In this document: piece by piece, positions 5,287-60,254 of the stretch
Layout of the letters: the number at the start of each line of letters is the position of its first letter
Position numbering within the stretch: position 1 is the stretch's first letter
Virus record (IMG/VR): IMGVR_UViG_2740892427_000001
DNA length: 64,000 nt
Reading direction: 5' to 3' (one strand)
Source: a virus
Lineage: Duplodnaviria; Heunggongvirae; Uroviricota; Caudoviricetes
Program-made: the position numbers and the translations under genes
The notes under the pieces: generated by a model
Database searches by the model: none
Told to the model about the DNA's origin: nothing
Seen by the model: the letters and a program-made list of their open reading frames with translations, nothing else

Positions 5287-5783
5287 TGGATGACTCCTTT
5301 ACGAAGCTGTTCAGCAATACTTACGCATATCTCTGCGCCTCTAATCAGCCCCGGAACGTTCTTGTTTGGCCCAACTTCACCATCAACAAAATCAATCATC
5401 GCGTTACGAGCCATATCCACGCCCTGCGCACGTACTTCAGCCAGAAAAGCATCGGTGGCTGGAGTCTCCGTTAATTCGCTAACCCAATTATCTCCGTGTT
5501 CCTCGGCACACATCGTATCGAATGCTCGCTCAGATTCTTTCAGGGCTGCATTCTCCGCCGCTAATGCGTCTCTTTGCGCCCGCAACTTCTCAATTTCGGC
5601 AGCCATGTAGTAACCAACCATAGCGAAGACGGCAAAAGAGTTGTCTGCCTCATCAGGCGACACTGAGGCCATTAGCAGGCCATCGTAAAAATCGTGACTC
5701 CCATTGGTGATCGCCACCGCATAGGAGTCGTGGTTCTCGCGCTTGTGAATGAGAACTACGGGATTTTCGATTTTGTTACTCAT
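5283..5783 (-). CDS. hypothetical protein
   Basis: 166 aa ORF with conserved GGAAAAACACATG-type start context. Confidence 0.5.
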   Translation of the reverse strand: MSNKIENPVVLIHKRENHDSYAVAITNGSHDFYDGLLMASVSPDEADNSFAVFAMVGYYMAAEIEKLRAQRDALAAENAALKESERAFDTMCAEEHGDNWVSELTETPATDAFLAEVRAQGVDMARNAMIDFVDGEVGPNKNVPGLIRGAEICVSIAEQLRKGVIQ

Positions 5784-5921
5784 GTGTTTTTCTCTTCTTT
5801 GCTGTTACATAAGCACTACCAAGTGCTGGTTTATTTTCACAAATAAGAAAAGGTAGAAAACAATTTATTTAAGGCCACAACTTATGGCCTTTATTTATTC
5901 ATGCCGAAGGATTTGTAGCGT

Positions 5922-6302: not shown

Positions 6303-7006
6303 CAGCGCACCTCACCATCTTTATGGCTGGAGTTAACTTCCGCCATTAAATGTCTGACGTAATCGACAAGAGAGCCACCTGGTGGAATCTGGCATTCCTC
6401 AACTAACTGGAAGTAGATATCCGCTGCATTACGTGTATTGCTACCCGCACATATTCTTTCTTCCCGAAGTGCATGAAGCTCGTTGATCAAACGGTCACAC
6501 TCTCCGTTACGCTGATCCACAACGGCCTCAAGCTCTGCGACGCGTTCACCTGGCGTCTTACCTTCTTTGCGTTGGATGGTAACGACGAAATCGCCAATTG
6601 CAGGGACGTTGTAATCCAGCTCAAGGTAGTTTTTGGCACCGCTGCGGACGAACTCACCCGCGAACATGGTGGCGAACATCGCAGAGGCCACTTCGTCGTT
6701 GAAAAGTGACTCCAGATCTAACGGAGTCCCGGCAGCAAGAGCCTCTTTTGCTGTATCCATTGCATCCATGAACCGATCAAACTCACTAGCGCGCTTTTCC
6801 AGGTCTTTCCATTGCTCGCTCCAACGTTTGGCAACGAAGTCTATGAATGTTTTCGCGGATTCATCAAAATCCCCCTCAAACTTAACGATGCCTTTATCAA
6901 TAATGATCTGGCCTACCGCATCCTCTGCATAACCTTTCAATGTAAACTTGAAAGGAAAATCAGAATGGCCTGTGACGTTAAAATGCTCTAACTGGAGGTT
7001 GTTCAT
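6302..7006 (-). CDS. hypothetical protein
   Basis: 234 aa ORF with conserved start context catgtgtttttc. Confidence 0.5.
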   Translation of the reverse strand: MNNLQLEHFNVTGHSDFPFKFTLKGYAEDAVGQIIIDKGIVKFEGDFDESAKTFIDFVAKRWSEQWKDLEKRASEFDRFMDAMDTAKEALAAGTPLDLESLFNDEVASAMFATMFAGEFVRSGAKNYLELDYNVPAIGDFVVTIQRKEGKTPGERVAELEAVVDQRNGECDRLINELHALREERICAGSNTRNAADIYFQLVEECQIPPGGSLVDYVRHLMAEVNSSHKDGEVR

Positions 7007-7067
7007 GTGTTTTTCTCTTATCGTTTAGTTATTACATTCTTACACAAATTAAGTAAGTATTTACCTA

Positions 7068-9471: not shown

Positions 9472-9473
9472 AA

Positions 9474-9755: not shown

Positions 9756-9809
9756 TTTTCACCCTTGTTTTTATCAACACAATATGGCCGATCATGCGGC
9801 CATATCAGA

Positions 9810-10379
9810 TCAATTAGAGCTTTGAAAGACTTTGTGTGGTTGTGTTGCGAGGTTATGTCGATGGCTTAACTCACGCATCATGTCTTCAAGGCGACTCTTT
9901 GTGTCGTCGAGTTGGTCGGCCATTGCTCCCAAAAGCTGACGAACGGCCATCGGATCATCGCTGTTTAGTGATGGCATTTTATAACCCGCCTGAGAAGACA
10001 TAAGATTGAACGCAGACATCAACATCGTTAGAGAGGATTTAAGCCCAGCAATTTCACGATCTTTGCTGGCAATAATCGCCTCACTCTTGTTAGTGTCATC
10101 AGTTCGTTGAGTCTCGCTCACCATATCCAAAGTCGCCTGCAACTTATCAGCGCGCTCTTTTTCAGCAAGATAATGAACACCGAAATGATGTGCTAAAGCT
10201 ACAACCTGAGTTGGCTCTTCAAAGGTGGACTCAAAATTAAGTGCTGTAACCACTCTCTCAAATATGGAAACGTCTTCTATTCCTCGAAGAATGGCTAACA
10301 TTTTGACCAGTTCATTAGCATCCATTTCTTCGAATAAGGCGTTTTGTTCATCAGCTATCGCTTTGCATTTCTTGCACAT
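9810..10379 (-). CDS. hypothetical protein
   Basis: 189 aa ORF; conserved leader motif ttaaacaagttgttttc 16 bp upstream. Confidence 0.5.
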   Translation of the reverse strand: MCKKCKAIADEQNALFEEMDANELVKMLAILRGIEDVSIFERVVTALNFESTFEEPTQVVALAHHFGVHYLAEKERADKLQATLDMVSETQRTDDTNKSEAIIASKDREIAGLKSSLTMLMSAFNLMSSQAGYKMPSLNSDDPMAVRQLLGAMADQLDDTKSRLEDMMRELSHRHNLATQPHKVFQSSN

Positions 10380-10676
10380 GTGTTTTTCCTAATGCTTAAA
10401 CAAGTTGTTTTCTTATTGGCTTTATTGTGATGTGGCATAAAAGGGGAGCAAGCTAAACGTAAAGGTGCAAACTCTCTATTTCGGTCAACGAAACACAAGG
10501 GCCATTTGGCCCTTGTCATTAACACGTTGCTTTACGGACTAGCGGATAAGCGAAGTAGATCGCCAAACCAATGAGGACGCCATCAGAAATGACAGACATC
10601 ATCTTTCCCGTAAAATCCACCAACACCGCCATCACCAGAAGAGCAATGACGATCACAAGCCGGAATCTCTCAAGCA

Positions 10677-11102
10677 TTAGAGATAAGCATCCAGTGACAA
10701 CTGAAGCGCCTGGGCGATCTTTTTCAGTGCCTGCTCTTCTTGTTCACCAATGCCATCCTGATCGGCAATATCAAGGCACAGACACAGAACATCGACCGCC
10801 TCTGGAGTACCCGCAATATCAGAAAGCTCACGAATAGCCTGTGCATTAGCAGAACGAGGGGACGCTTCGTAACGAGCACGGATATTGGCGCTCATTTGGG
10901 CAATTTCACCAGCAAACGGAGAAAACGCAGGCAGAGCTGCAATTGTCTTCTCAAGAATGGCAATTTCTTTTGCGTCACATGTGCCGTCGGCATAGGAGAT
11001 CATGTACGCGCCCCACACGGTGGCCTCAACCGCATCACGGTTCTCCATTTTTTTGACTTCGATAACTGCTTTACGAGTTTTCTTTTTGAAGAAACCTAAC
11101 AT
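10677..11102 (-). CDS. TerB-like domain protein
   Basis: 141 aa; resembles TerB/DjlA-N type helical domain (low-certainty motif recognition). Confidence 0.4.
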   Translation of the reverse strand: MLGFFKKKTRKAVIEVKKMENRDAVEATVWGAYMISYADGTCDAKEIAILEKTIAALPAFSPFAGEIAQMSANIRARYEASPRSANAQAIRELSDIAGTPEAVDVLCLCLDIADQDGIGEQEEQALKKIAQALQLSLDAYL

Positions 11103-11195
11103 GTGTTTTCCTTTTGTTATTTGTCAAAACAAGTTGTTTTATAGTTTCATAAATTGCTTACGCAAAGATGGTCAATGCATATGCACTAACAGCCG

Positions 11196-11888: not shown

Positions 11889-12033
11889 GTGGACTCCATC
11901 CAGTGTCAGAAAGAGTTGCGGCTGGCGATTGCCAGCCGCCTTTCTCGTTCCATCCTGGAACTGTGTCTTACCGACACATTGTCATCCTGACGCTGATAAG
12001 ATACATGATTTAAAATGATAGGTAAACACTTAC

Positions 12034-20168: not shown

Positions 20169-21311
20169 TTACAGGTCTGCAAACTGGCTTAGAGAAGCCT
20201 TGTCCACGGTAGAATCGATCTGACCTACCAGATATGTGCTTTGCTCTGCCTCTTGTGGTGCAATTTGCAGTGTGTCGGTTAACAACCACTTGTTCATCCA
20301 GACCAGCGGATCAGTGGTAACTTCTGGAAATAAAGCCTTCAGGCCAAGACGATTCATAGCCAGATTGGTTCGGTATTTTACATAGGTCTTCAGAATATCC
20401 GCGTTTAAACCAATCATCGAACCGTCTTTGAAGAGATAGTCTGCCCAGTTCATTTCTTGTTCGGCGACTGATTTCATGGTGTCGTAAATGACGTTTTCTT
20501 CATCAGCAGCAATCTCTTTCCACAATAAACCTTCGCGACCGGTACGCATGAAGCGGATCATGCGTTCAGTTCCTTCGCAATGCAGAGCTTCATCACGGGC
20601 AATAAAGCGCATAATTTTGGTGTTACCCTCAAGCAACTTCCGTTCGCCAAAGGCAAACGTACATGCAAAACTTACATAGAAACGGATCGCCTCAAGCGCA
20701 TTAATGGACACTAACGTGCGGAAAAGCTGACGGTGCAAAGGGTATGGCTCCCAGCCATATTCATTTACGTACAGACGTTCAAACTCTTTCTCACCTAACG
20801 ACTGGCGCTCGCAGGTCATCCCATAAAGCCTGTCATATTCAGCAGAGATACTGATCGCTCGGTTGATGATTTCTTCATCCGTAACAATACCGTCAAAAAC
20901 AATGCTCGGATCGTCCACCATGCCACGAATAATGTGGGTGTAGCTGCGGCTATGGATAGTCTCAGAGAAAGACCATGTTTCAACCCACGTTTCCAGTTCA
21001 GGAATAGAGATAAGCGGCAGCAGCGTTGCATTTGGGCTACGTCCCTGAACTGAATCGAGCAACGTTTGATAACGGAGATTACTCAGGAAAATGTGGCGTT
21101 CGTGGTCCCGCAGCTTCGTATTGAAGTCGATGCGATCGCTCGAAATATCAACTTCTTCCGGCCGCCAGAAGAAAGACAATTGACGTTCAATCAACTTTTC
21201 AAAATCACGGTATTTTTGTTGATCGTAACGAGCCACGTTGACAGATTGTCCGAGGAACATAGGCTCTTTGGTTGCATCATTAGCACCCAAACGGAACGTT
21301 GAATATGACAT
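20169..21311 (-). CDS. nrdB: ribonucleotide reductase class I small subunit
   Basis: 380 aa; R2-type iron/radical-site layout; adjacent to nrdA. Confidence 0.85.
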
Positions 21312-21393
21312 GTGTTTTTCCTTTTTCTTTTTTGGTGCGTTTAAACAAGTTGTTATCTTATGTGTTTAAACAAGGCTTACAAATCAAAGAGAA

Positions 21394-27309: not shown

Positions 27310-28349
27310 AAAATATCCAATTTGCTCAGATCAAATCCGCCGTCAGTATCGTGGACAATCTTGCAATAAGCAGATACCGACTCTCCCAGGCTATCGATTT
27401 TGCTGGTTTCAGTTGTGCTGGCTGTCCCTTCCATCATTGATGACTTACGGATGAAGTTGCACACGACACCTTTTGCACCCATTGTTTTGAGGATGTTCTG
27501 GTACTTAATGCCTTCTTCATCGTTCTCAATTACGGCGCGGAAACGCACGTAGTTGCCGCGAATTTGGTCATCAGCAACATCATCTTCCAGGTTAATGAAT
27601 TTAGGCGCACTGGTTTCGTAGTGACTGAAACTGCCGTCCGGGTTTACGATCATGTAGCCAGCCAGAGATCCAACATCTCCCCAATTTTGATGAGTCAGTG
27701 CACCGACACTGATAACTCCAGGAATGACCTCTTTGTGGTTGTGGTAATGCCCACTAAGCACGAGACGAAAGCCGATATCCTTTAACTCCTGCGCATCGAT
27801 ACCGACGTCAGGCATTGTTGGAATGGCTTTGTTAATGGATGTATGGATAACAACGTCATGATTGTCACCTTCTACGCTCTTACGTAATGCTTTCAGATCG
27901 CTGATAAGCTCCGCATGATTGTTACGCCAGCTAATCAGGTGGACAGTCACATCACCAATTTTTATTGAGTGTGGGCGCTTGCCACATACGATTACCACGC
28001 CGATAGAACTCAGCGATGCTGCTGCGTTGGCGCTATATACTGAATCGTTGGTTTCAAGATCGTGATTACCGGCCAGCATTACTACTGTCAGATCAAGCTC
28101 GTTGATAATCCACTTGTACGTTTCAGTTACGTAATGCAAAACAGAAGGGGACACAGTTCCTCGGACGTGAAATGTATCACCGGCAACCAACATGTACTTA
28201 CAACCGGCCTTCTTCATGGCGATGGCTGCTTCTTTCGTTGCTTCCAACTGTATTTCAAGTCTGGAGTTAAGCCCCTCAGCGTTCGTCGTGGAGAACGCAT
28301 CCCATTTGTGGTAGTGGCAGTCAGAAATGACGCCGTATGGCAAAGTCAT
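27264..28349 (-). CDS. sbcD: SbcD/Mre11-like nuclease
   Basis: Metallophosphatase motifs DCHYH, GDTFH, GNHDLE; start set to ATG at 28349, which has the conserved leader, rather than 28445. Confidence 0.75.
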   Translation of the reverse strand: MTLPYGVISDCHYHKWDAFSTTNAEGLNSRLEIQLEATKEAAIAMKKAGCKYMLVAGDTFHVRGTVSPSVLHYVTETYKWIINELDLTVVMLAGNHDLETNDSVYSANAAASLSSIGVVIVCGKRPHSIKIGDVTVHLISWRNNHAELISDLKALRKSVEGDNHDVVIHTSINKAIPTMPDVGIDAQELKDIGFRLVLSGHYHNHKEVIPGVISVGALTHQNWGDVGSLAGYMIVNPDGSFSHYETSAPKFINLEDDVADDQIRGNYVRFRAVIENDEEGIKYQNILKTMGAKGVVCNFIRKSSMMEGTASTTETSKIDSLGESVSAYCKIVHDTDGGFDLSKLDILCQEILTEAESSEAM

Positions 28350-28575
28350 GTGTTTTTCCTTTGTGGTTATTTTGATACAGATATTAAGTGTGTTTGAGAG
28401 GCGAACAATCCAGATAACACGGCCATTAAGAATGTTCACAGACACATGATTATGGCAAATTCATAGGTAAGTGAATACCTATTTTTATGGACAGCAAAGA
28501 CTTCTAGATGTTACAAGCCACTCTATAATCGCAGTCACTTAATGATGACAACCAAACGAAAAAGGAGAACTGACG

Positions 28576-33320: not shown

Positions 33321-33596
33321 TCACTCAAAAGTGCTGATGCTTAAAATACGCTCAAGATGTGCGGCATCTTCATCACTGATTTGTTGAGTCTCTTCTACGT
33401 ACCAACAGTTGCCGTTATGCCAACAAACACCATCATCATCAACCATCACTGAATCAGCGTCATGACCTGTATATTCAACGAGAATACGCTGGATCAGCGC
33501 GTCAGTTTCTTCGTCGTTAAGGCCATCGGCTTTGACCATAAAAAGCGGAAACACGTCATAGACAGTGCTGGTAACGATTCGAACTAAAACTCTCAT
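33321..33596 (-). CDS. hypothetical protein
   Basis: 91 aa ORF with conserved start context. Confidence 0.45.
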   Translation of the reverse strand: MRVLVRIVTSTVYDVFPLFMVKADGLNDEETDALIQRILVEYTGHDADSVMVDDDGVCWHNGNCWYVEETQQISDEDAAHLERILSISTFE

Positions 33597-33651
33597 GTGT
33601 TTTTCCTTTTGTGGTTAGTGTTTACTTATTTTGTTAGTTATGAATAGGCGA

Positions 33652-34077: not shown

Positions 34078-34168
34078 GTTTTCTTATCCTTTTAAACAAA
34101 TTGTTTTCTTAATAAGATAATTGCGATAAAAAAGGCGTCCAACTGGACGCCTGAACTTTTTAGGGGAG

Positions 34169-35002: not shown

Positions 35003-35203
35003 TTATTTCCCCTTTGCTTTGATTAATGAGTTGATAAACTTACGACCAGCAATAAGACCGATTACAGGAGCACCAAAACCAACGATAACTCCAAACATGA
35101 CGGCTAAATCACTCTTGGTAGAAATCAGCGACGGAACCAGTAAACCGTAGATGAGAGCCACTGAAAGGCCTGTGGTTACTGCCAATAGATAGATTTTGAT
35201 CAT
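35003..35203 (-). CDS. small membrane protein (possible NfeD-like partner of SPFH protein)
   Basis: 66 aa, two TM segments, immediately upstream of SPFH gene. Confidence 0.4.
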   Translation of the reverse strand: MIKIYLLAVTTGLSVALIYGLLVPSLISTKSDLAVMFGVIVGFGAPVIGLIAGRKFINSLIKAKGK

Positions 35204-35295
35204 GTGTTTTCCTATGTGGTTGTTATGCGAAAATAATAAGTAAGTACTTATATATTTTCAAGAGATAAAAAAGGCGTCCTGTGGACGCCTTGTGT

Positions 35296-38908: not shown

Positions 38909-39937
38909 TTACAGAGAGTCCAGCTCTCTCAGTAGGTCATCCAGACCTTCATCTTCCGTCGCAGATGCGGTTGCTACAGATGTCGCTGCGACTGCTTCAG
39001 ACTCTTTGACTGATACGGCAACGGCAGCGGAACTTGCCTCTGGTTTAAATTCAGTTTCAACGGCACGGAGGATTTCTTCATCAACCAGACTGGTTGGTTC
39101 AGAAGCCGGTGTGTGCGCGGTTGCTACAGCCGTCGCTCCTTCTGTATGACCAGTGACAGAGCCAAATCCAGGTAGTGCCGCAGCCGATGTTTTCGCGGTT
39201 GAGGAAATTGCTGGTGCAGATGCTGCGGCAGTTGGTGCAGCGATGCCAATCAGACGACCCATAGTGCGAACTGTCGACAGAAGACGAGTTTCATCAGCCT
39301 GATTTGCGTATGCGATCAGATCATGCTGGGTGTTCCAGAATTTATCTTCGATATCGCCTTTGTAGACTTTACGCTTAGGCGAGACGTCATATTTGGTATC
39401 GCGACCAGAGCCAGTACGTTTAATCAGGAATGCGTAGCCTTCCTCTTTGCTCAGTGGATTGCCGATATCATCAGCGATGTCTTCGGTGATTGCTTTGCAG
39501 ATATCATCGAATACAGTAGACGGCAGCTCGATTAACTGGCATTTCTCAGCATCTGCGAAATCCTCACGAGCAGAAAGAATGCCGTTGACCAGGTAGCGAG
39601 GAGTGGCACGCATTTGACCGATGCGTTCTTCCATTGCTTTGTTACCCTTGTGACGAGCGCGACCTTCCATCACCATTTCGCATAGCTGACAAGCGCGACC
39701 GTGAGTATGTTGCTCACAAATATAAGCGTTGGTTGCTTCTTTACCTTCCTCGTTCTGATACTTAACGTAGTGCATACCGAAAGTCTGGAAGAACTTACCG
39801 TTTGGGTCGTCTTTATTCGGGAAGATGCGGATATAGTTGACGCCGTCTTTTAAGCGAGTCAGATCAACGTTGTTGCCACGTTTGGCGGCAATGTCTTCAC
39901 GAGTTTTGTTAAGCAAATCAAGTAATGTCTTAGACAT
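38909..39937 (-). CDS. T4 gp32-like single-stranded DNA-binding protein
   Basis: Zn-binding pattern CEQHTHGRACQLCE; Ala/Ser-rich linker; acidic C-terminus DEGLDDLLRELDSL. Confidence 0.6.
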   Translation of the reverse strand: MSKTLLDLLNKTREDIAAKRGNNVDLTRLKDGVNYIRIFPNKDDPNGKFFQTFGMHYVKYQNEEGKEATNAYICEQHTHGRACQLCEMVMEGRARHKGNKAMEERIGQMRATPRYLVNGILSAREDFADAEKCQLIELPSTVFDDICKAITEDIADDIGNPLSKEEGYAFLIKRTGSGRDTKYDVSPKRKVYKGDIEDKFWNTQHDLIAYANQADETRLLSTVRTMGRLIGIAAPTAAASAPAISSTAKTSAAALPGFGSVTGHTEGATAVATAHTPASEPTSLVDEEILRAVETEFKPEASSAAVAVSVKESEAVAATSVATASATEDEGLDDLLRELDSL

Positions 39938-40054
39938 GTGTTTCTCCTTGTTGTGATTTGGCCGATGGCGCTATGCGCGTTGGGCTTTCGTTCATTCGTG
40001 GCTCTTTCGAGCTGTTAAATGATAGATCAGTACTTACTTATTATCTATCAAAAA

Positions 40055-45400: not shown

Positions 45401-45944
45401 GCGGATAAACCACGCTATAGAAGTTGTCTTTCCCGCCCGCTGTAATCAGTGAGCTTATGATTTTTGCAAAATCGTTGCGTTGGAACACGCTACCGATGTC
45501 GGAAGTGAGCAGGATGATGTTGCCTTTGGCATATGTAGAAACCAACTGTTCGAGCGAGAGACGCGGTACAAAGTAGAACTGTTCTCGTGTGTTGGCCACC
45601 GTCATTAGTTCGCAGATGTCGCGATATCCTTTCTCATTTTTAATTAGAGCGGTAAACGAGTAGTTACGTCCTCGCTCCAATGATTCCATACATCCCTTAG
45701 ACTCTTTAGCAAGTTTAGCCCGGTGCTCGTATGTGGGATCATCAACGATGTTTAGTTTCACACCACAAATAACCGCCATGTCGTCACCAGCGGCACGTTG
45801 TAGTGGAATAACGCTCGCAATATTCATGCTATCTGCTGAAATTACAGCGGTGTAGCCAGCTTCTCTGGCAATCTTCACCGCGTTTTCTGCTTTTAGAGCC
45901 GACTCCCCAAGTGAGAAGTCAGTTCGAACCATCAGTGCTTTCAT
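42438..45944 (-). CDS. dnaE: DNA polymerase III alpha subunit-like replicative polymerase
   Basis: 1168 aa; N-terminal PHP-like domain; PDADLDF catalytic aspartate block parallels DnaE PDIDIDF. Confidence 0.8.
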   Translation of the reverse strand: MKALMVRTDFSLGESALKAENAVKIAREAGYTAVISADSMNIASVIPLQRAAGDDMAVICGVKLNIVDDPTYEHRAKLAKESKGCMESLERGRNYSFTALIKNEKGYRDICELMTVANTREQFYFVPRLSLEQLVSTYAKGNIILLTSDIGSVFQRNDFAKIISSLITAGGKDNFYSVVYPHPTPFYDQINVRAMKVASALKIEPVAFYPAYYESIDDADIKDIAHMVTNNIKIDQPHRLRIPHQRDNAINGRRHLLEALKAFSVRMDVPVTAAMASTTQDSIIDACTWRWHELPPALPKMADDEPATLMKLAVAGLRKRLTTKEFGYTPPASENRVYVERLKYEMDTLTRLGFCGYFLMVRDLMNHSRETGIPVGPGRGSSAGSLVAWCIGITNVDPIRHGLLFERFINPERLDLPDADLDFSQARRHEVIEYLNERYGEDYVAGIPNFTYLGAASALRDTARIYGVESADMAVSKELKNVEDDSLPLEELREQLASLDKYATKYPDAFNAACKLQSLMRGFGRHAAGMIVAGVPLTERTPVERRGDARCIAFDKRYCEAMGLIKLDVLGLATLDLLDSAKRYIKESTGEDINLDAIPLDDRKVLDGFAAGYTQGVFQLESGPMRKLLKDLGGGIEPMSFKTVVATTALFRPGPIQSGMLDDYVSVAKGFMAPHSIHPRLEEVTRETNGVLLYQEQIMQSSRVLAGFSMAEADALRSAIGKKNMDKMKAIGSDFVERAQAGWVTLSLKNGGTVEVHKHAKLDCSDGKRRSYSEAISDGIDYVEIVSEQEGLSKEKAQEIWDAFEKFGGYAFNKSHSVAYSLISYQSMWLKTHYPAEFFAAALTILGEDKHQGLVKDALTYGIRVLPPDVNVSSNRIEIRTLEDGSQALYAPFSAVKGCSENGCQAIMRAREKVGGKFESVAQFDEAVEKRACNSRVRESLHKVGAFASIEPGSLPATDPERLRDQAELMGNLIIDAVKASRPFEMNPKRSAEINVLMTRMAAEMGLGEELIRPTIGIKPKIMIILDNANGNDARTGYFMENGYDDFKAKLLTVGDLRMGDLYVTGVCKKVKDKEKDYTKDEIGQFTDFMREEINLVRPTYILTCGSRSTALFNNKSKPSDLIGRKEYFPELDATVFYGFNPNILYFRPEEGERLEAILADIAETINK

Positions 45945-46128
45945 GTGTTTTTACCTTTATGGTTTTTTTGATTTTGTCATTGGGGAAGCCTACGAACTTC
46001 CCATACATCGAAATCGCAACTTCTTTTGCTGATTGGTGACAATCGGTCTTGTCTGGACATACCAGACAAGCCTTACCAGTTTCAGAAGCAGCGATAAGAG
46101 AGCCGAAACATCCTTTACGCACGATCAA
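45919..46128 (-). CDS. small Cys-rich protein
   Basis: 69 aa, CLVCPDKTDCH. Confidence 0.35.
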   Translation of the reverse strand: MIVRKGCFGSLIAASETGKACLVCPDKTDCHQSAKEVAISMYGKFVGFPNDKIKKTIKVKTHESTDGSN

Positions 46129-47360
46129 CCAAATATTTTTTGAACAACTTCACGAGCCGCTTGTGCAGAAGCTGAAGGGAGTTTGTTAATGAAAGAACGC
46201 TCAATACCTGTCACAAAGTCGCCTCGCATCATTCCAATCTTGGCCGACAACAAAAGTTCACGAGGGCCAATTGGCTGACTGATAAGGTGTTCTTCGTATC
46301 CATCGCGAACGATACCGGCAAACTTAACCATCTTTTCTGCGTATTCATCCACGATACCGGCATTTATCAACATGTTGATCTCTGCCTCTTTGCTCATGTA
46401 TTTCACATTCGAAACGATGCCAAAACGCGAAAAGTTCGCGGCGTTCTGGATGTTTGTACCCTGGTACAAGCCGGTTTCATCACCAGATCCGTTCGTGTTG
46501 CCAGTGCCAATGAAAGCAAACCGTTCATGCGGAGTAATGCGACGCCATTCTGGAGTCGCCTCTTTGATGACCAACGCTTCACCTTCCAGCACTGGCTGAT
46601 ACACGCCAAGAATCTGTGGAAACGCAAAGTCGTATTCATCCGCGAGGTAAACCCAGCCATGCTTCATTGCGAGCGCAAGCAAGCCAGGCTCGAAATACGT
46701 AGAGCCATCACGCGCCAGAATTTGCCCCGTAACATGTGCCTCTTCCATTGATGCTGTATGTTGGGCACGGATCAACGGACGATTGAGCAAAGCACATAGT
46801 TGTGTAGGCAATGACGATTTGCCTGTTCCTGCATGACCCCACAAATAGCCAGGTATGCCAAGTTCAAGCATCATGAAAATGTCTTTGATCAGTTCGAAGT
46901 CGCCATATACGTAGCCCTTCTTCACTTCTGGAACGAACTCTGGAAACGGCGTATTGACGTTGACGCTAACCATGAGCGGCGTCCCACGTTTTGTTCCGAG
47001 TTCTTTCACCGTTACATTTAGCAGTTCGTGAGCTGCGACCAGATCTGTCTTGTACTCAACTGTGCCTGTGTAGCCTGGGCTACTGGTCACGCCAGATGAT
47101 TTGGCCATTTCGCTTTTTTGCTCGGCACGTTTAGCTTGAATTGCATCAAGTGCCTTTTTCGATAGCGTTGGCTCATCTGGAAACTGTGTTGTGTACATTT
47201 TCAGTACGGTGTCAGGATCGGCATCTTTTACTGACTCAGGAATGCCCTCGCAATTACCATTGGCTACATGGGACTTAAAATAGTGAAATGATTTTCCGCA
47301 CCACTTGCAAACAAGGTAATCAGAAGGATTTTTTTCATTTTGCAGTGCAGTAGTAGTCAT
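46125..47360 (-). CDS. CobS-like AAA+ (MoxR-family) ATPase
   Basis: Walker A GHAGTGKS; pairs with downstream vWA protein. Confidence 0.6.
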   Translation of the reverse strand: MTTTALQNEKNPSDYLVCKWCGKSFHYFKSHVANGNCEGIPESVKDADPDTVLKMYTTQFPDEPTLSKKALDAIQAKRAEQKSEMAKSSGVTSSPGYTGTVEYKTDLVAAHELLNVTVKELGTKRGTPLMVSVNVNTPFPEFVPEVKKGYVYGDFELIKDIFMMLELGIPGYLWGHAGTGKSSLPTQLCALLNRPLIRAQHTASMEEAHVTGQILARDGSTYFEPGLLALAMKHGWVYLADEYDFAFPQILGVYQPVLEGEALVIKEATPEWRRITPHERFAFIGTGNTNGSGDETGLYQGTNIQNAANFSRFGIVSNVKYMSKEAEINMLINAGIVDEYAEKMVKFAGIVRDGYEEHLISQPIGPRELLLSAKIGMMRGDFVTGIERSFINKLPSASAQAAREVVQKIFG

Positions 47361-47455
47361 GCGTTTTTCCTTTGTTTTCTAATGAGCGTTCAACTTCTTA
47401 TATAAATATATCATTATCTATCGTAAGTGGTTACTTATCGTTAAGGCTGTTTTGT

Positions 47456-49564: not shown

Positions 49565-49662
49565 GGCTAATCCTTTGTTATGAAAACAAATTATTTACTA
49601 GTGTGTTTAATGTAGCACTGCGCGAACAGGGAACTAAGCCATTCGCGCAGGGAGAAGAGGGG

Positions 49663-57607: not shown

Positions 57608-58789
57608 TTACGATAGCGCCTTAATGCCTAAAACCTTGCTTTGCAACTCCAACTGTCTGGTATACGGTTTTGCCCGATAATAGGCTTTGATAATTTGTTC
57701 TGGCGTTGCATCGCCTGGGTCGAGTCCTTCCTCGCCCAAACACGCTACTTTGACATTAAGACCAATACTGGTCAGTCGCCTGGCTGCGGCCATAGTGTTG
57801 CGTATAGCTTGCTTTTCACTATCCCACATCATGATCACATTACGTAATCCACGCGCCTTGAGCGTCAGGAACGCGCCCAACTGATCTTCTGCATCCTGAG
57901 TGGTGTTGCCAGATAGATGCATCCCGAACGTTCCTATTGGTTCCACGTAATCACGTAATGTTTCTTCATCAAAAATAGCTCGTTTAACTCCCATAACATC
58001 GAACGCCCCCTCACAGACAACTACAGTCTGTTTGCCAACTGCATTATGGCCGTTGTAGAGAAACTTACCTGAAGCTGGAAGCTGCATAGGAAAGAGGTAG
58101 CGGCGTTCTGCTGTACCGGTAATGTCTCGTCCCTGAAATGTCTTCATTACCCCATCCAGATCGTAAACCGGTATCAGTATTCGCATATCGAATATCTGTC
58201 CTTTAACCTGATCTGTATACGGATCTACATAGGCGTGCTTGCCTTCGACGCAGTATCGTAGGTCAAAATATTTTGCCATTTCAGGTGATATGTTTCGTTC
58301 AACCAGATAGTCTGGAAGACGGCCATCTATAGGAAGCTCGTAATGACGAGGGAGTGCAACTGGCCCCTCTAACTCGACTGTGCTTGCAAGCACTAGCTCT
58401 TCTTTCTTTGGTGCCCACCCCTGGGAAAGAAGAGCGTTCTGCACATATTCCTCGAACTGTCGTCGTGATTTACCGCTGTAGTGCTTGAGGAAGACCAGCT
58501 TATTGAACTGAATCTCTTCGGGATGATCACCAGCGAAGCATTTGCCGACGCCACTGGTCAGATTGAAATATACCTTCCAGTTGGAGCTGCCGCATACCGG
58601 ACACTCCTTGATATTCACTTCACGACCGCGAGTACTCACGCCTCCACGTCGATAAACGATACCTTCAGTATCCAACCATTGTTCAAAATCTAATTCGGTA
58701 ATTAGCTCTTTCAGCTCGCTCACGATAATTCCACTTTTAACAGGCAATATTGTGACCAACCTAAATGTTGATATAACATAAAGGCTCAT
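57608..58789 (-). CDS. DNA primase (zinc ribbon + TOPRIM)
   Basis: CPVCGSSNWKVYF zinc-binding element; start set to ATG 58789, which has the conserved leader, rather than 58861. Confidence 0.7.
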   Translation of the reverse strand: MSLYVISTFRLVTILPVKSGIIVSELKELITELDFEQWLDTEGIVYRRGGVSTRGREVNIKECPVCGSSNWKVYFNLTSGVGKCFAGDHPEEIQFNKLVFLKHYSGKSRRQFEEYVQNALLSQGWAPKKEELVLASTVELEGPVALPRHYELPIDGRLPDYLVERNISPEMAKYFDLRYCVEGKHAYVDPYTDQVKGQIFDMRILIPVYDLDGVMKTFQGRDITGTAERRYLFPMQLPASGKFLYNGHNAVGKQTVVVCEGAFDVMGVKRAIFDEETLRDYVEPIGTFGMHLSGNTTQDAEDQLGAFLTLKARGLRNVIMMWDSEKQAIRNTMAAARRLTSIGLNVKVACLGEEGLDPGDATPEQIIKAYYRAKPYTRQLELQSKVLGIKALS

Positions 58790-58870
58790 GTGTTTTTCTT
58801 TTGTGGTTTGGCAAAAGAAAAGTTGTTTCACCAATGAATCAAGCGTGGAGGTGTTCTCCACGCTTATTTT

Positions 58871-60211
58871 TTAGGTAACGTCTAAGATTCGCTCAATGAA
58901 GCGCATTTGTTCGAGGTTTTGTTTAACGCGAATGCTGATCCCTCCCTGCTGGTTACGTGAACCAGCAAAGTAGAGACGAGCCTCTCCTTTCGCTTCTTCT
59001 TCTTCGGTTTTGTTGATCGTTATTACCAGGTCAGCAATACGTACTTTTTCGATGTTGTCGGCAGCGTGCATCATTGTGGCAACTTCTGACGCGCCACCTT
59101 CACGGTTTGTCTGCGATGCCGTGATCCCAGCAACGTTATGCTTGTCATAAAGAGCACGTAAATCGGTGTAGATACTACGAATGTTGGCGCGATCATCACG
59201 AAGGTCATAACTGGCACGCATCAAATCTGCGTAGTCGACAACAACCATGTCAGGTACCATGCCGTTGGCTTTCATGCTGTTAAGCATACGGTCCAGATCT
59301 GCCGGTGACATACTTCCTGACGGACGCTCAACCACCCACAAACTACCAATCCCCTTCGTGGCTCCCAACTCTGCCAACTTACGATGAACCTCATCGCGCC
59401 GTTCCACCAGCTTGGACATTTCTGTCTCCGACAATCTTGCATCAAAACGGTCGGATAAAATGGTGGTGTGAACCTCCAGCGAGAGATACAGAACATTGTA
59501 GCCAGCAAGCGTTGCGTTTATGGAAAACTCACCCATTGCGGTCGATTTACCGGATTTAGCGAACCCCATGAAGAGCACCATTTCGCGCTTTGCCCAGCCT
59601 TTTTGGTACAGCAACCTATCGAGCAGAGGGAGTCCAGTTGTAATGCTGTTTGGCACATACTCCTCTGAAGCCTCATATTCACGCGCTTTCAATCGCTCAC
59701 TTGCGGAGGTGTAGTAGTCATAGATTCCGGTCGCTTCGTTCGATCCAATCTGCTGAACCTTGGCCATGATTGCCATCGCCCCCTGAAAGTCGCCTTTCTC
59801 TTTCAGTTCAGCAGCCTTAATCAGAGCATCATCAAACGCTACACTTTTTGCGAAGGTTGATACCTGGTCAACCATGTACGAGGTATCGGACAATTTTTCT
59901 GCAAGAATGCGCTTAAACGCAGCAACAACATCGGCGAATAGTTCCTCACGGATAGTCTTATCGCGTTTCGCACGCTTAAGCATATCCAGAATTGCAGATG
60001 AAGAGGGCGCGCTCTTGTACATACGGTAATAGCCCGAAACCATATTAACCAATATGGCATTGGCCGCATTGGCAAATTGGCTAGGCACAACCAGATCTCC
60101 CGCACGAGTAAGAAACTCGTGATCACGACAAAAATATGCCGTCAGTCTGTTCTGGAAATCTTCATCAAACTCTTCGGACAGCCCGCGTCCTGTATGGCAA
60201 AGTTCGGTCAT
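58871..60211 (-). CDS. DnaB-family replicative helicase
   Basis: Walker A GFAKSGKST and RecA-like C-terminal domain; 446 aa. Confidence 0.75.
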   Translation of the reverse strand: MTELCHTGRGLSEEFDEDFQNRLTAYFCRDHEFLTRAGDLVVPSQFANAANAILVNMVSGYYRMYKSAPSSSAILDMLKRAKRDKTIREELFADVVAAFKRILAEKLSDTSYMVDQVSTFAKSVAFDDALIKAAELKEKGDFQGAMAIMAKVQQIGSNEATGIYDYYTSASERLKAREYEASEEYVPNSITTGLPLLDRLLYQKGWAKREMVLFMGFAKSGKSTAMGEFSINATLAGYNVLYLSLEVHTTILSDRFDARLSETEMSKLVERRDEVHRKLAELGATKGIGSLWVVERPSGSMSPADLDRMLNSMKANGMVPDMVVVDYADLMRASYDLRDDRANIRSIYTDLRALYDKHNVAGITASQTNREGGASEVATMMHAADNIEKVRIADLVITINKTEEEEAKGEARLYFAGSRNQQGGISIRVKQNLEQMRFIERILDVT

Positions 60212-60254
60212 GTGCTTTCCTTTGTTTTTTAAACAAATTGTTTTCTAGTATTAG

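What the first reader, a model, noticed from the sequence alone, without database searches (positions are those of the whole stretch)
10381..10412. Conserved leader cassette: palindrome TTAAACAAGTTGTTTTC plus a near-invariant translation-initiation region
The imperfect palindrome AAACAA(G/A/C)TTGTTT occurs 15-35 nt upstream of several minus-strand start codons (~10396, 11124, 21341, 34092, 60229, 63145). Most operon-first genes begin with the same minus-strand context (CCACAAAGG)AAAAACACATG (plus-strand catgtgtttttcc at 5781, 7004, 10377, 21309, 28347, 33594, 35201, 45942, 58787). This looks like a shared post-promoter control element, either an operator or a translational enhancer.
Basis: seen in the sequence. 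Interest (0 to 1): 0.4.

Follow-up and report, generated by a model that had tools for sequence, protein, structure and literature searches.

The report
Dispersed operator palindrome in SSU5-type phage-plasmids
A 13-base palindrome repeated about 20 times in this phage-plasmid sits at fixed positions on its promoters and is most likely the docking site of a still-unidentified repressor, while the shared start-codon context is a separate, unusually unstructured ribosome-binding site.

Summary
The window is an SSU5/pHCM2-type phage-plasmid, about 98% identical to Escherichia phage Cyrano. AAACAAnTTGTTT occurs 5 times exactly (0.02 expected) and at 8 intergenic loci in all. It is the most over-represented palindrome genome-wide in Cyrano, SSU5 and a Klebsiella relative, at orthologous promoters.

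The full site is asymmetric: AAGAAAACAAnTTGTTTAAGG. Its position is locked to the promoter. The -10 hexamer ends 13-14 nt before the core (centre about +14), or an inverted copy ends 19 nt before the hexamer (centre about -38). Pairs 51 bp apart bracket single promoters in four replicons. The distance to the start codon varies from 11 to 84 nt, the RNA hairpin is negligible (-0.7 kcal/mol), and most downstream genes are at or near background in published lysogen RNA-seq.

Best reading: a dispersed DNA operator for a dimeric element-encoded repressor, a regulon like P1 C1 or RK2 KorB. The binder is unresolved.

The ...AAAGGAAAAACACATG motif is a separable element on about 12 replication, recombination and nucleotide-metabolism genes. 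It is strand-specific, conserved at orthologues and significantly unstructured, so it is most likely an optimised ribosome-binding site.

The parts
10394..10414 (-). Flagged locus: full 21-nt site AAGAAAACAACTTGTTTAAGC (core 10398-10410), type A orientation with the AAGA extension on the promoter side, upstream of the 189-aa gene at 9810-10379.
   Evidence: Exact core match. PWM score 32.0 bits on the minus strand. Sequence read directly.
10424..10451 (-). Inferred sigma-70 promoter of the flagged unit: -10 CACAAT (10424-10429), 16-nt spacer, -35 TTGCTC (10446-10451). The hexamer ends 13 nt before the palindrome core, so the inferred transcription start is near 10417 and the palindrome centre near +14.
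   Evidence: Read. The 13-nt gap is the modal geometry (15 of 24 sites). The orthologues in SSU5 and Klebsiella have CACAAT and CAGAAT at the same gap. This is inference; no start-site data were available.
10377..10392 (-). Initiation-region motif of the flagged gene: AGGAAAAACACATG (SD AGGAA, 7-nt A/C-rich spacer, ATG at 10379-10377).
   Evidence: Exact 13-mer match. Context.
5858..5870 (+). Type B (inverted) palindrome. It lies immediately after a GGCC...GGCC terminator-like hairpin and 19 nt upstream of an extended -10 element TGTGAAAAT (hexamer 5833-5838, minus strand). Its centre is at about -38 of the promoter for the Eae-like gene at 5283-5783.
   Evidence: PWM score 27.9 bits on the plus strand. 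The 19-nt gap matches 8 of 9 type B sites. The terminator-like hairpin at 5871-5891 was found.
11127..11139 (-). Palindrome upstream of the TciA/TerB-like gene (10677-11102), 24 nt before the ATG.
   Evidence: Orthologous site in Klebsiella at 17795.
21343..21355 (-). Palindrome (1 mismatch) upstream of nrdB (20169-21311), 31 nt before the ATG.
   Evidence: Orthologous sites at SSU5 70219 and Klebsiella 7465/7490.
34094..34106 (-). Palindrome upstream of the 141-aa gene at 33652-34077, 16 nt before the ATG and directly after an intrinsic-terminator-like hairpin.
   Evidence: Orthologues at SSU5 56848 and pFra 50842.
49584..49596 (-). Palindrome (1 mismatch, orientation ambiguous) upstream of the cobT-like gene (47456-49564), 19 nt before the ATG.
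   Evidence: Orthologues at SSU5 42729, Klebsiella 91040 and pFra 36708.
60231..60243 (-). Palindrome upstream of the DnaB-like helicase gene (58871-60211), 19 nt before the ATG.
   Evidence: Orthologues at SSU5 34385 and Klebsiella 75767.
63147..63159 (-). Palindrome upstream of parA (62443-63111), 35 nt before the ATG. It is conserved together with its flanks in SSU5 and Klebsiella.
   Evidence: No stronger repeat was found in this promoter region.
62084..62443 (-). Second gene of the parA operon (119 aa, start overlapping the parA stop). It is one candidate binder and is possibly a ParG-like ribbon-helix-helix protein. This assignment is not established.
   Evidence: No Pfam family. The segments SRTMSxEDE and FTRSDVIRAAI are invariant while the rest of the protein diverges to about 50% identity. 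AF2 model with pLDDT 63: disordered tail followed by helices. Foldseek and PDB searches were uninformative. Weak sub-threshold hit to aCcr1. Against: the gene is absent from pFra, which keeps the palindromes.
5781..5796 (-). Initiation-region motif copy (Eae-like gene).
7004..7019 (-). Initiation-region motif copy (Ead/Ea22-like gene). No palindrome of the first family nearby.
11100..11115 (-). Initiation-region motif copy (AAAAGGAAAACACATG, tciA-like gene).
21309..21324 (-). Initiation-region motif copy (nrdB).
28347..28368 (-). Initiation-region motif, long form AACCACAAAGGAAAAACACATG (sbcD-like gene). No palindrome of the first family.
33594..33615 (-). Initiation-region motif, long form (91-aa gene).
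35201..35216 (-). Initiation-region motif copy (small membrane protein).
   Evidence: Cyrano 57498. Context.
39935..39950 (-). Initiation-region motif copy (gp32-like SSB gene).
45942..45957 (-). Initiation-region motif copy (DNA polymerase III alpha gene). The SD variant AAGGT is conserved in three genomes.
47358..47373 (-). Initiation-region motif copy (cobS-like gene).
58787..58802 (-). Initiation-region motif copy heading an ORF upstream of, and in this genome in frame with, the primase gene.
60209..60224 (-). Initiation-region motif copy (AAAGGAAAGCACATG, helicase gene).

Best explanation
There are two separate elements.

(1) The palindrome. The full site is the asymmetric AAGAAAACAAnTTGTTTAAGG around the dyad AAACA-N3-TGTTT. 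It is a double-stranded-DNA operator, repeated about 20 times per genome, for a dimeric DNA-binding protein encoded by the phage-plasmid. It overlaps or directly follows the transcription start (core about +8 to +20). As an inverted copy it instead covers the -35 region (core about -44 to -32). At some promoters both copies are present, 51 bp (about five helical turns) apart. A protein bound there would block RNA polymerase binding or escape. The sites therefore define a regulon of independently terminated transcription units (parA, helicase, cobT, nrdB, tciA-like, terS and many small early genes) that is held down in the plasmid-prophage state.

Shown: the enrichment, the geometry, the conservation, the lack of RNA structure, and the low expression of most of these genes in lysogens. 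Inferred: the transcription starts, repression as the mode of action, and the existence of a dedicated binder. The binder is not identified. My rough ranking is the parA-operon 119-aa protein, the FljA-family protein, the 92-aa C117, the 88-aa C123 and the 71-aa C37, with no clear leader. CYRAN_45, the CI-like repressor, appears to use a different palindrome.

(2) The initiation-region motif (A)ACCACAAAGGAAAAACACATG. It is a family-specific, strong and unstructured ribosome-binding site: SD AAGGA, a 7-nt A/C-rich spacer and an A/C-rich upstream tract. About 12 replication, recombination and nucleotide-metabolism genes use it, and each has free intergenic space upstream. It most likely maximises translation initiation without needing a dedicated factor.
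For: Enrichment. 5 exact copies against 0.02 expected and 8 against 0.5 at up to 1 mismatch. PWM hits number 34, 35 and 34 against 0.8-1.9 in shuffles for three genomes. It is the top exact palindrome genome-wide. All 8 window sites are intergenic.

Conservation. Orthologous positions are kept in Cyrano, SSU5, Klebsiella pJN2-26 and Y. pestis pFra while the flanks differ.

DNA-level geometry. The gap from the -10 hexamer to the core is 13 nt in 15 of 24 sites and 14 nt in 4 of 24. For inverted sites the gap from core to hexamer is 19 nt in 8 of 9. Pairs 51 bp apart bracket one promoter in Cyrano, SSU5, Klebsiella (twice) and pFra. The distance from core to start codon ranges over 11-84 nt. Reverse-complemented upstream sites fit the same asymmetric consensus.

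No compensatory changes. Variant sites change one arm only.

No RNA structure. The palindrome folds at -0.7 kcal/mol and leader z-scores are +0.1 to +1.4. There is no Rfam family at these loci.

Repression. Genes behind near-consensus TGnGATAAT promoters plus a palindrome (CYRAN_101, 105, 106, 108, 110) read 5.7-12.8 normalised counts in the LF82 lysogen, against a prophage median of 9.8 (PMC9928086 supplement).

A different operator for the CI-like repressor. The CYRAN_45/46 control region has GGTAAG..CTTACC palindromes and no copy of this one.

Initiation motif. 10 matches against 0.17 expected. It is strand-specific, with 21/0, 15/0 and 15/1 hits against 0.4-1.4 in shuffles, at the same orthologous genes. 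Ensemble dG over -25..+25 is -4.46 against -7.36 kcal/mol (p = 0.0006), and p = 0.004 against other genes with an upstream gap of at least 40 nt.
Against: No transcription start sites were available, so all promoter positions are inferred from consensus. Within the window only 10398 (type A) and 5858 (type B) show the canonical geometry. At 11127, 21343, 60231 and 63147 no A2/T6 hexamer sits at the standard gap, and the site may overlap the -10 element or the start.

parA, which has a perfect site, is expressed at about 5 times background in the lysogen (helicase about 2 times, CYRAN_111 about 2.6 times), so repression would be partial at best at those promoters.

No binder is identified. No candidate regulator other than the parA operon has the site at its own promoter, and that operon is missing from pFra, which keeps the sites.

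Low expression in the lysogen is also what one would expect from activator-dependent promoters.

For the initiation motif, selection for lack of structure alone does not explain near-identity of a 13-mer across unrelated genes.
Confidence: 0.6

Rival explanations
1. RNA-level operator. The palindrome acts in the 5' leader of the mRNAs as the target of the element's FljA-family (Sm/Hfq-like) protein, which would block translation or destabilise the transcript, as Salmonella FljA does on the fliC leader.
For: CYRAN_114 / SSU5_121 matches PF03614 'Repressor of phase-1 flagellin' over its full length (E = 1e-80) and has a weak Hfq hit. It is expressed in the lysogen at log2 7-8 in four of five conditions. 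It is core to SSU5-type elements. It is kept at 78% identity on Y. pestis pFra, and from my own knowledge Y. pestis makes no flagella. It is only 35% identical to a plasmid-borne gene annotated as a phase-1 flagellin repressor. Type A sites lie in the inferred 5' UTR just upstream of the SD. The Salmonella fliC leader carries CAAGTTGT, the palindrome core, just upstream of its SD. FljA acting post-transcriptionally on fliC is stated in PMC2652032.
Against: The fliC leader scores only 0.7 bits with the site PWM, against 19-33 for real sites, and 4.3% of random windows do as well. The E. coli fliC leader scores lower still. Inverted copies sit upstream of promoters at a fixed -38, outside that promoter's transcript. 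The spacing is locked to the -10 element and not to the SD. Exact dyad symmetry with one-arm-only variation is typical of a dimer bound to duplex DNA. The RNA hairpin is negligible. Co-occurrence does not discriminate, because the gene is simply part of the SSU5 core.
Confidence: 0.12
2. Partition-linked global silencer. The sites are bound by the 119-aa second gene product of the parA operon, a ParG/omega-like centromere-binding protein. It would both autoregulate parA and silence the phage promoters, as omega does on pSM19035 or KorB on RK2. This is a specific version of the best explanation that names the binder.
For: A perfect site sits at the parA promoter and is conserved together with its flanks. 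No better repeat is present there. The gene overlaps the parA stop codon. It is expressed in the lysogen at 89 against a background of 9.8. It has a disordered N-terminal tail followed by helices. The segments SRTMSxEDE and FTRSDVIRAAI are invariant while the rest of the protein diverges to about 50%. There is a weak hit to aCcr1, which from memory is a ribbon-helix-helix regulator. In Moellerella only parA keeps a half-conserved site.
Against: The fold is unconfirmed: pLDDT 63, and Foldseek, PDB and Pfam searches found nothing. pFra has the palindromes, including a 51-bp pair and the terS pair, but lacks this gene and the SSU5-type parA. Moellerella keeps a homologue with the same putative reading segments but has no regulon.
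Confidence: 0.15
3. Recombination cassette without a dedicated binder. The conserved terminator-promoter-palindrome blocks are paralogous 'mobile regulatory cassettes', like the PeSLs of T4-type phages. On this view they are kept because they drive transcription and mediate shuffling of small genes, and the palindrome is a passenger or a weak bidirectional pause signal.
For: The strongest copies flank small, variable ORFs in one hyperplastic region (Cyrano 93-98.5 kb, SSU5 88-94.5 kb, Klebsiella 24.7-29.1 kb). About 60 nt of promoter sequence is shared (TTT..GCCTT-N11-TGnGATAAT). Type B copies follow terminator hairpins. PeSLs are described as composite terminator/promoter motifs in PMC4122927.
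Against: At core genes (parA, helicase, cobT, nrdB, terS) only the 13-21-nt site is shared while the flanks are unrelated, which argues for selection on the site itself. The strict -38, +14 and 51-bp geometry and the promoter-facing asymmetry are not needed for recombination.
Confidence: 0.06
4. The initiation-region motif is the operator of a dedicated translational regulator, as with T4 RegA. Such a regulator would coordinate replication, recombination and nucleotide-metabolism genes.
For: Near-identical 13- to 22-mers head about 12 unrelated genes of one functional class. The motif is strand-specific and kept at orthologues in three genomes. The gene set resembles the T4 RegA regulon (own knowledge). 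The element encodes T4-like gp32, UvsX, UvsY and UvsW homologues.
Against: No RegA-like or other translational regulator is annotated in any of the four records. I did not scan every hypothetical protein. The spacer varies at orthologues (AAAAACAC, AAAGACAC, AAATACAC). The regions are significantly unstructured, which by itself explains high initiation.
Confidence: 0.2
5. The palindrome is a binding site for a host nucleoid or transcription factor such as IHF, Fis, PhoP or a LacI- or GntR-type regulator.
For: The hosts are all Enterobacteriaceae. The right arm contains TGTTTA, which resembles a PhoP half-site (own knowledge).
Against: By inspection there is no match to the LexA box, the IHF consensus (2 of 9 specified positions wrong), LacI-family even-centred sites, or the direct-repeat PhoP architecture. 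The true LexA boxes in the window are different sequences. The motif has no trace in the literature. I could not scan the host genome for it.
Confidence: 0.04

Closest known systems
Bacteriophage P1 C1 repressor and its dispersed operators (phage-plasmid immunity regulon)
   Same: The element is a phage-plasmid. One short operator is repeated at many separate promoters around the genome, in front of replication and accessory genes (a DnaB-type helicase in both; a tciA-like gene here). The downstream genes are mostly quiet in the plasmid-prophage state.
   Different: P1 operators are asymmetric 17-mers (ATTGCTCTAATAAATTT, own knowledge) bound by a monomer. Here the site is a dyad with an unrelated sequence. 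No C1 homologue is annotated. The CI-like repressor of this element seems to use another palindrome.
KorB (ParB-family) OB operators of IncP plasmid RK2, and omega of pSM19035
   Same: The architecture is a 13-bp 6-1-6 palindrome (OB is TTTAGCSGCTAAA, own knowledge). There are about a dozen or more copies per replicon. A global repressor there is tied to the partition system, and here a site sits at the parA promoter.
   Different: The sequence is different. KorB sites lie at variable distances from promoters, whereas these are locked at +14 or -38. The element's two ParB-like genes are at background expression in the lysogen. The parA-operon candidate is not a ParB homologue and is absent from pFra.
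FljA and the fliC 5' leader (Salmonella flagellar phase variation)
   Same: The element encodes a full-length PF03614 protein. Type A sites lie in the leader just 5' of the SD, as the CAAGTTGT-containing segment does in fliC.
   Different: The fliC leader is not a statistically convincing instance of the site (0.7 bits, p = 0.04). Upstream inverted copies and promoter-locked spacing point to DNA. The protein is only about 35% identical to a plasmid-borne gene annotated as a flagellin repressor.
PeSL (promoter-early stem-loop) cassettes of T4-type phages (PMC2839356, PMC4122927)
   Same: These are composite terminator-hairpin plus early-promoter blocks, repeated in front of small variable ORFs in a hyperplastic region.
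   Different: Here the repeated unit carries a weak AT-rich dyad at fixed positions. The dyad also occurs alone at core-gene promoters with unrelated flanks. Recombination between copies was not examined.
lac O1-type downstream operators (repressor bound just after the transcription start)
   Same: The dyad centre lies 11-14 nt downstream of the inferred start. An auxiliary site on the other side of the promoter is on the same helical face.
   Different: The auxiliary site is only 51 bp away, which looks more like flanking or cooperative occupancy than looping. The sequence and the protein are unrelated.
T4 RegA translational operators (comparison for the initiation motif only)
   Same: A shared sequence spanning the SD and AUG occurs on a set of replication and nucleotide-metabolism genes.
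   Different: No RegA homologue was found in the annotations. The motif is explained more simply as an unstructured strong RBS.

Membership tests
Dispersed operator of a phage/plasmid global repressor (generic class) | Short site repeated far above chance and confined to intergenic promoter regions | tested here: met
   8 of 8 window sites are intergenic.
Dispersed operator of a phage/plasmid global repressor (generic class) | Fixed position relative to core promoter elements, overlapping the RNA polymerase footprint | tested here: met
   Gap of 13 or 14 nt after the -10 hexamer in 19 of 24 sites, and 19 nt before it in 8 of 9. The promoters themselves are inferred from consensus.
Dispersed operator of a phage/plasmid global repressor (generic class) | Dyad symmetry without compensatory (RNA-type) covariation | tested here: met
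   Variant sites change one arm only. The hairpin folds at -0.7 kcal/mol.
Dispersed operator of a phage/plasmid global repressor (generic class) | Downstream genes repressed when the regulator is present | tested here: inconclusive
   Published lysogen RNA-seq shows most such genes at or near background (5.7-12.8 against a median of 9.8), with CYRAN_32 at 21, CYRAN_111 at 26 and parA at about 50. There is no regulator-minus comparison.
Dispersed operator of a phage/plasmid global repressor (generic class) | An identified cognate DNA-binding protein | not testable with these tools
   Candidates were ranked but not resolved.
P1 C1 operator | Asymmetric 17-bp consensus ATTGCTCTAATAAATTT and a C1 homologue | tested here: not met
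   The site sequence is unrelated by inspection. No C1-like gene is annotated.
KorB OB operator | 13-bp palindrome TTTAGCSGCTAAA bound by a ParB-family HTH protein | tested here: not met
   The 6-1-6 architecture is the same but the sequence differs. The ParB-like genes CYRAN_119 and 120 are at background in the lysogen.
FljA-type 5'-UTR operator | FljA-family protein encoded by the same element | tested here: met
   PF03614, E = 1e-80, full length.
FljA-type 5'-UTR operator | Resemblance to the known FljA target (fliC leader) | tested here: inconclusive
   The 8-mer CAAGTTGT is shared, but the PWM score is 0.7 bits and p = 0.043.
FljA-type 5'-UTR operator | Site always within the regulated transcript, positioned relative to the SD | tested here: not met
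   Inverted copies lie at -38 upstream of promoters. The core-to-ATG distance is 11-84 nt.
Structured cis-regulatory RNA / known Rfam family | Stable conserved secondary structure or a match to a covariance model | tested here: not met
LexA (SOS) box | CTGT-N8-ACAG | tested here: not met
   The palindrome does not fit. The true LexA-type boxes are elsewhere, at 1940 and 51640.
PeSL-type mobile regulatory cassette | Composite terminator hairpin plus early promoter repeated before small variable ORFs | tested here: met
   Type B sites follow hairpins and precede TGnGA(T/A)AAT. The cluster lies in a variable region.
PeSL-type mobile regulatory cassette | Indel and replacement endpoints between related genomes fall in the cassettes | not tested
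   Breakpoints were not mapped.
Sigma-70 extended -10 promoter (for the units carrying the site) | TGn immediately upstream of a TATAAT-like hexamer with A2 and T6 | tested here: met
   13 type A sites and 7 type B sites in three genomes have TGn plus a hexamer. In the window this holds only at 5833-5841. The other window sites have weaker or unrecognised -10 elements.
RegA-type translational operator (initiation motif) | Shared sequence over the SD and AUG on a functional gene set, plus a RegA-like protein | tested here: inconclusive
   The first part is met. No RegA-like gene is annotated, but not every hypothetical protein was scanned.

The most novel reading that the evidence does not exclude
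The palindrome may be the nucleic-acid target of the element's FljA-family Sm-like protein. On this reading, that protein is a core regulator of SSU5/pHCM2/pMT1-type phage-plasmids rather than a flagellin repressor. It is conserved at 78% identity even on Yersinia pestis pFra. The chromosomal FljA/fliC-leader pair of Salmonella would then be a domesticated offshoot of a phage-plasmid global regulator, and the CAAGTTGT core in the fliC leader would be a vestige of the operator.
Probability: 0.1. Interest if true: 0.75.

Novelty: new member of a known kind. Interest (0 to 1): 0.42.

Why it matters
SSU5/pHCM2/pMT1-type phage-plasmids are common. Homologues of two of their core genes occur on about 800 plasmids in PLSDB, in Klebsiella, Escherichia, Enterobacter, Salmonella (including serovar Typhi), Citrobacter and, for one of the two genes, Yersinia pestis. 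They carry resistance genes (PMC9600943). I found no description of their regulatory circuit.

The palindrome, together with a second palindrome family noticed here, gives a concrete, testable map of about 20 plus about 16 transcription units and their likely control points. With a 21-bp probe in hand, the repressor can be identified directly by pull-down, DAP-seq or EMSA. Knowing that switch would help explain what keeps these elements as quiet plasmids and what turns them into phages.

In kind, it is an ordinary operator regulon and not a new principle.

Tried and rejected
RNA hairpin or riboregulator. The palindrome folds at -0.7 kcal/mol, the leaders are no more structured than shuffles, and there is no Rfam family at these loci. 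Rejected.

fliC leader as an instance of the site. The Salmonella/Citrobacter and E. coli fliC leaders were fetched. The core 8-mer is shared in the Salmonella/Citrobacter leader, but the PWM score is 0.7 bits and p = 0.043. This is not enough to claim FljA recognises the site.

Co-occurrence of the FljA-like gene with the motif. The gene is confined to SSU5-like phages, so the test does not discriminate.

CYRAN_45 (CI-like HTH) as the binder. I first discounted it because SSU5 lacks it, then realised SSU5 may simply have lost its lysogeny module. It is better excluded because its own control region carries a different palindrome.

Fold of the parA-operon protein. Pfam and PHROGs gave nothing, PDB sequence search gave nothing, the AF2 model has pLDDT 63, and Foldseek gave nothing. 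The ribbon-helix-helix assignment stays an inference.

Phyletic tests. Moellerella pW18-2-b lacks both palindrome families although it keeps homologues of several candidates, so the result is inconclusive. Y. pestis pFra keeps the sites without the parA-operon protein, but it is nearly identical to SSU5 in the shared regions, so this is not a test of selection.

Literature. No paper holds the motif or describes SSU5-family operators. The primary FljA papers (PMC1347349, PMC156219) and a 2026 preprint on an SSU5-type element are not held.

Viral-contig scan for the 16-mer. Outside 90-112-kb SSU5-like contigs it returned mostly single chance hits.

LexA box, IHF, PhoP, LacI-type and P1 C1 operator consensus sequences were compared by inspection and rejected.
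Full report
**What the window is.** Window 9000-24000 aligns over its full length at 98.3% identity to Escherichia phage Cyrano (OV696614.1) and at about 77% to Salmonella phage SSU5. Cyrano is the SSU5-like phage-plasmid of E. coli LF82. The window's minus strand corresponds to Cyrano's plus strand. It covers the partition, replication, recombination and nucleotide-metabolism arm: parA, a DnaB-like helicase, primase, ligase, tRNAs, integrase plus a CI-like repressor, cobT/cobS, Pol III alpha, a gp32-like SSB, RecA/UvsX, RepA, sbcCD, nrdAB, thyX and others.

- AAACAANTTGTTT occurs 5 times exactly (0.02 expected) and 8 times at up to 1 mismatch (0.5 expected).
- All eight loci are intergenic. 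They are 5858, 10398, 11127, 21343, 34094, 49584, 60231 and 63147.
- For the seven co-oriented sites the core ends 16-35 nt before a minus-strand ATG.
- CATGTGTTTTTCC occurs 10 times at up to 1 mismatch (0.17 expected).
- An unbiased count of every exact 6-N(0-4)-6 palindrome ranks AAACAA-N1-TTGTTT first in Cyrano, SSU5 and Klebsiella phage pJN2-26, with 9, 11 and 11 copies. The largest count in shuffles is 1-2.

**Anatomy of the palindrome.**
- Aligning about 37 sites from Cyrano and SSU5 shows that the conserved unit is longer and asymmetric: AAGAAAACAAnTTGTTTAAGG.
- The innermost pair is the most variable, so the dyad is effectively AAACA-N3-TGTTT.
- Sites that first looked different, because they lie upstream of a promoter, are reverse complements of the same asymmetric site. 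In both arrangements the AGAA extension faces the promoter.
- A PWM gives 34, 35 and 34 hits of at least 12 bits in Cyrano, SSU5 and pJN2-26, against 0.8-1.9 in shuffles. In the window it gives 13 hits against 0.94.
- Orthologous positions are retained in all three genomes and in Y. pestis pFra, often with diverged flanks: before terS, parA, the helicase, cobT, nrdB, tciA/terB and the orthologues of the genes at window 9810-10379 and 33652-34077.

**Geometry.**
- Many sites, especially a cluster just outside the window (Cyrano 93-98.5 kb), follow a near-consensus extended -10 element TGnGATAAT.
- Across the three genomes the hexamer ends 13 nt (15 of 24) or 14 nt (4 of 24) before the core. With a start about 7 nt after the hexamer, the core spans +8 to +20 and its centre is at +14.
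- For inverted sites the core ends exactly 19 nt before the hexamer in 8 of 9 cases, so the centre is at -38.
- Pairs of one inverted and one direct site exactly 51 bp apart bracket a single promoter in Cyrano, SSU5, pJN2-26 (twice) and pFra.
- Two direct copies 25 bp apart precede terS in Cyrano, SSU5 and pFra.
- By contrast, the distance from the core to the start codon ranges from 11 to 84 nt.
- At the flagged locus the inferred layout on the minus strand is as follows:
  - -35 TTGCTC at 10446-10451
  - -10 CACAAT at 10424-10429
  - palindrome at 10398-10410
  - SD AGGAA at 10386-10390
  - ATG at 10379-10377
- Site 5858 is the inverted type. It lies directly after a terminator-like hairpin and 19 nt before TGTGAAAAT (hexamer 5833-5838).
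- Caveat: at 11127, 21343, 60231 and 63147 I could not find an A2/T6 hexamer at the standard gap. -10-like hexamers there abut or overlap the site (for example TATAAA, TAAGAT), so the operator may cover the -10 element or the transcription start instead.
- All promoter positions are inferred from consensus. No start-site data were available.

**DNA or RNA?**
- As RNA the palindrome folds at only -0.7 kcal/mol. Whole leaders are no more structured than shuffles, with z = +0.1 to +1.4.
- No Rfam family matches these loci.
- Variant sites change one arm only, never both in a compensating way.
- Taken with the promoter-locked spacing, the inverted upstream copies that lie outside the regulated transcript, and the exact 51-bp pairing, this points to a protein dimer on duplex DNA.

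**Expression.**
- The LF82 paper's supplementary table gives normalised counts for every Cyrano gene in the lysogen (PMC9928086).
- Genes directly behind strong TGnGATAAT promoters plus a palindrome (CYRAN_101, 105, 106, 108, 110) read 5.7-12.8. Those behind terS, cobT, nrdB, tciA and CYRAN_87 read 7-13. The prophage median is 9.8.
- Intermediate cases are the helicase CYRAN_32 at 21 and CYRAN_111 at 26.
- parA reads about 50 and its operon partner 89.
- Promoters this close to consensus should fire unless something holds them down, so repression is the simplest reading. The data lack a regulator-minus control, however, and parA shows that repression cannot be complete everywhere.

**Who binds?** This is unresolved.
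1. CYRAN_45, the CI-like HTH repressor next to the integrase (window 50127-50513).
   - Its divergent control region has no copy of this palindrome.
   - That region does carry several copies or half-sites of a second family, for example GGTAAGCACTTACC at 50082-50095.
   - It therefore probably uses that other operator.
2. The 119-aa product of window 62084-62443, the second gene of the parA operon.
   - In favour:
     - It is the only candidate whose own promoter carries the site.
     - It is expressed in the lysogen.
     - It has a disordered tail followed by helices.
     - Two of its segments are invariant while the rest diverges to about 50% identity.
     - It gives a weak sub-threshold hit to aCcr1.
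   - Against:
     - Its fold could not be confirmed.
     - pFra keeps the palindromes while lacking this gene.
3. CYRAN_114, which lies outside the window.
   - It is a full-length PF03614 (FljA, 'repressor of phase-1 flagellin') protein with a weak Hfq signal.
   - It is expressed in the lysogen.
   - It is core to SSU5-type elements and is retained at 78% identity on Y. pestis pFra.
   - It is only 35% identical to a plasmid-borne gene annotated as a phase-1 flagellin repressor.
   - FljA is reported to act post-transcriptionally on fliC (PMC2652032).
   - The Salmonella/Citrobacter fliC leader contains CAAGTTGT just 5' of its SD.
   - However, that leader scores 0.7 bits with the site PWM, against 19-33 for real sites, with p = 0.043.
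4. Other small conserved proteins also remain possible: C117 (92 aa), C123 (88 aa, weak winged-helix hits) and C37 (71 aa).
5. A distant relative in Moellerella lacks both palindrome families even though it keeps homologues of several candidates. That phyletic test is therefore uninformative.

**The initiation-region motif.**
- Its long form is (A)ACCACAAAGGAAAAACACATG.
- It is not genome-wide. In Cyrano 12 of 123 genes carry it, all between 32 and 86 kb and none in the structural module.
- A PWM finds it only on the coding strand, with 21/0, 15/0 and 15/1 hits against 0.4-1.4 in shuffles.
- The hits fall at the same orthologous genes in three genomes: the helicase, an ORF before the primase, cobS, Pol III alpha, the gp32-like SSB, sbcD, nrdB, tciA and three small genes.
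- All 12 have at least 43 nt of free intergenic space upstream, but they are only 12 of 79 such genes.
- Their -25..+25 regions are significantly less structured than those of other genes: -4.46 against -7.36 kcal/mol, p = 0.0006. Against other genes with an upstream gap of at least 40 nt, p = 0.004.
- The motif occurs with and without the palindrome, so the two are separable.
- I read it as an optimised, unstructured strong ribosome-binding site.
- A dedicated RegA-like regulator is a minority alternative. No such gene is annotated, and the spacer varies at orthologues.

**Comparison with known systems.**
- Functionally the palindrome behaves like the dispersed operators of P1 C1 or RK2 KorB (the latter is also a 6-1-6 palindrome), or like the omega regulon of pSM19035. 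By sequence it is none of these, and it is not a LexA box.
- The terminator-promoter-palindrome blocks in the variable region resemble PeSL cassettes of T4-type phages (PMC4122927). At core genes, however, only the site itself is shared.
- I found no description of this motif or of any SSU5-family regulatory circuit.

**Verdict.**
- The finding is real and conserved, and it is biologically meaningful.
- It is most likely a new operator regulon of a familiar kind in a widespread but poorly studied family of phage-plasmids.
- Its repressor is not yet identified.
- It is accompanied by an independent family-specific ribosome-binding-site consensus.

Noticed in passing
window 7050-7067, 12019-12036, 14236-14249, 19068-19081, 23784-23797, 28468-28481, 33284-33297, 33615-33628, 35237-35254, 40027-40040, 47424-47437, 54053-54070, 57579-57592, 61009-61026; also 49900-50100: A second dispersed palindrome family, consensus about TAGGTAAGT-nn-ACTTACCTA. 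TAAGTANNTACTTA at up to 2 mismatches gives 22 matches against 1.65 expected. It is the runner-up exact palindrome in three genomes. It often abuts the SD or start codon of other operon-first genes (thyX, nrdA, the methylase, sbcD, SSB, cobS and others). Several copies or half-sites cluster in the divergent control region of the CI-like repressor CYRAN_45 (GGTAAGCACTTACC at 50082-50095). It is probably that repressor's operator, although as RNA it would also form a 7-bp hairpin.
   Followed up: partly
window 1940-1955 and 51640-51655: Two good LexA-type boxes. CTGTATATGCATACAG lies 19 nt upstream of the UmuD-like gene (1532-1921, minus strand). CTGTATAAGTAAACAG lies about 30 nt upstream of the integrase gene (50508-51611, minus strand). 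This fits the published SOS (ciprofloxacin) inducibility of Cyrano.
   Followed up: partly
Cyrano 100780-101301 (outside the window); SSU5 96897-97343; pJN2-26 31722-32252; Y. pestis pFra 65931-66458: A full-length FljA-family (PF03614) gene is part of the SSU5/pHCM2/pMT1 core and is kept at about 78% identity in Y. pestis. It is only about 35% identical to a plasmid-borne gene annotated as a flagellin repressor. Its role in these elements is unknown.
   Followed up: partly
window 41741-42159 (+): A full-length match to the Rfam cspA thermoregulator (RF01766, 187.6 bits), implying that the element carries a cold-shock protein gene with its regulatory leader.
   Followed up: no
window 1-20000: Matches to the sigma-70 -35/-10 consensus are depleted relative to shuffles: 15 found against 32.5 +/- 5.5 expected.
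   Followed up: no
window 58787-58811 (minus strand); SSU5 35837; pJN2-26 77226: A copy of the initiation motif heads an ORF upstream of the primase gene. The ORF is only 22-23 codons long in SSU5 and pJN2-26, but it runs on for 393 codons in frame in Cyrano and, by the 417-aa ORF at 57608-58861, in this window. It may be a leader peptide or an alternative primase start.
   Followed up: no
Cyrano 95805 (CYRAN_105), 97903 (CYRAN_110), 94381 (CYRAN_103): The annotated starts of these genes overlap palindrome sites. The sequence suggests that the real starts are the SD-preceded ATGs downstream of the operator, at about 95826 and 97972. These are likely mis-called starts in the public record.
   Followed up: partly
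window 34075-34077 versus Cyrano about 58630: The gene behind the 34094 palindrome has an intact ATG in this window, but Cyrano reads ATA at the same place and the gene is annotated there with an ATT start. It may be inactivated in Cyrano.
   Followed up: no
window 52636-53289: ARAGORN finds four tRNA genes (Ser, Thr, Tyr, Asn), whereas the Cyrano record annotates three. The window also appears to lack CYRAN_43, the most highly expressed Cyrano gene in the lysogen, and there is an offset of about 1 kb from Cyrano coordinates in this region.
   Followed up: no
Cyrano 57/82; SSU5 56/81; pFra 72388/72413 (outside the window): Two direct copies of the palindrome 25 bp apart precede the small terminase gene, so the packaging and late operon seems to belong to the same regulon. 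pJN2-26 has a single site there, at 38628.
   Followed up: partly
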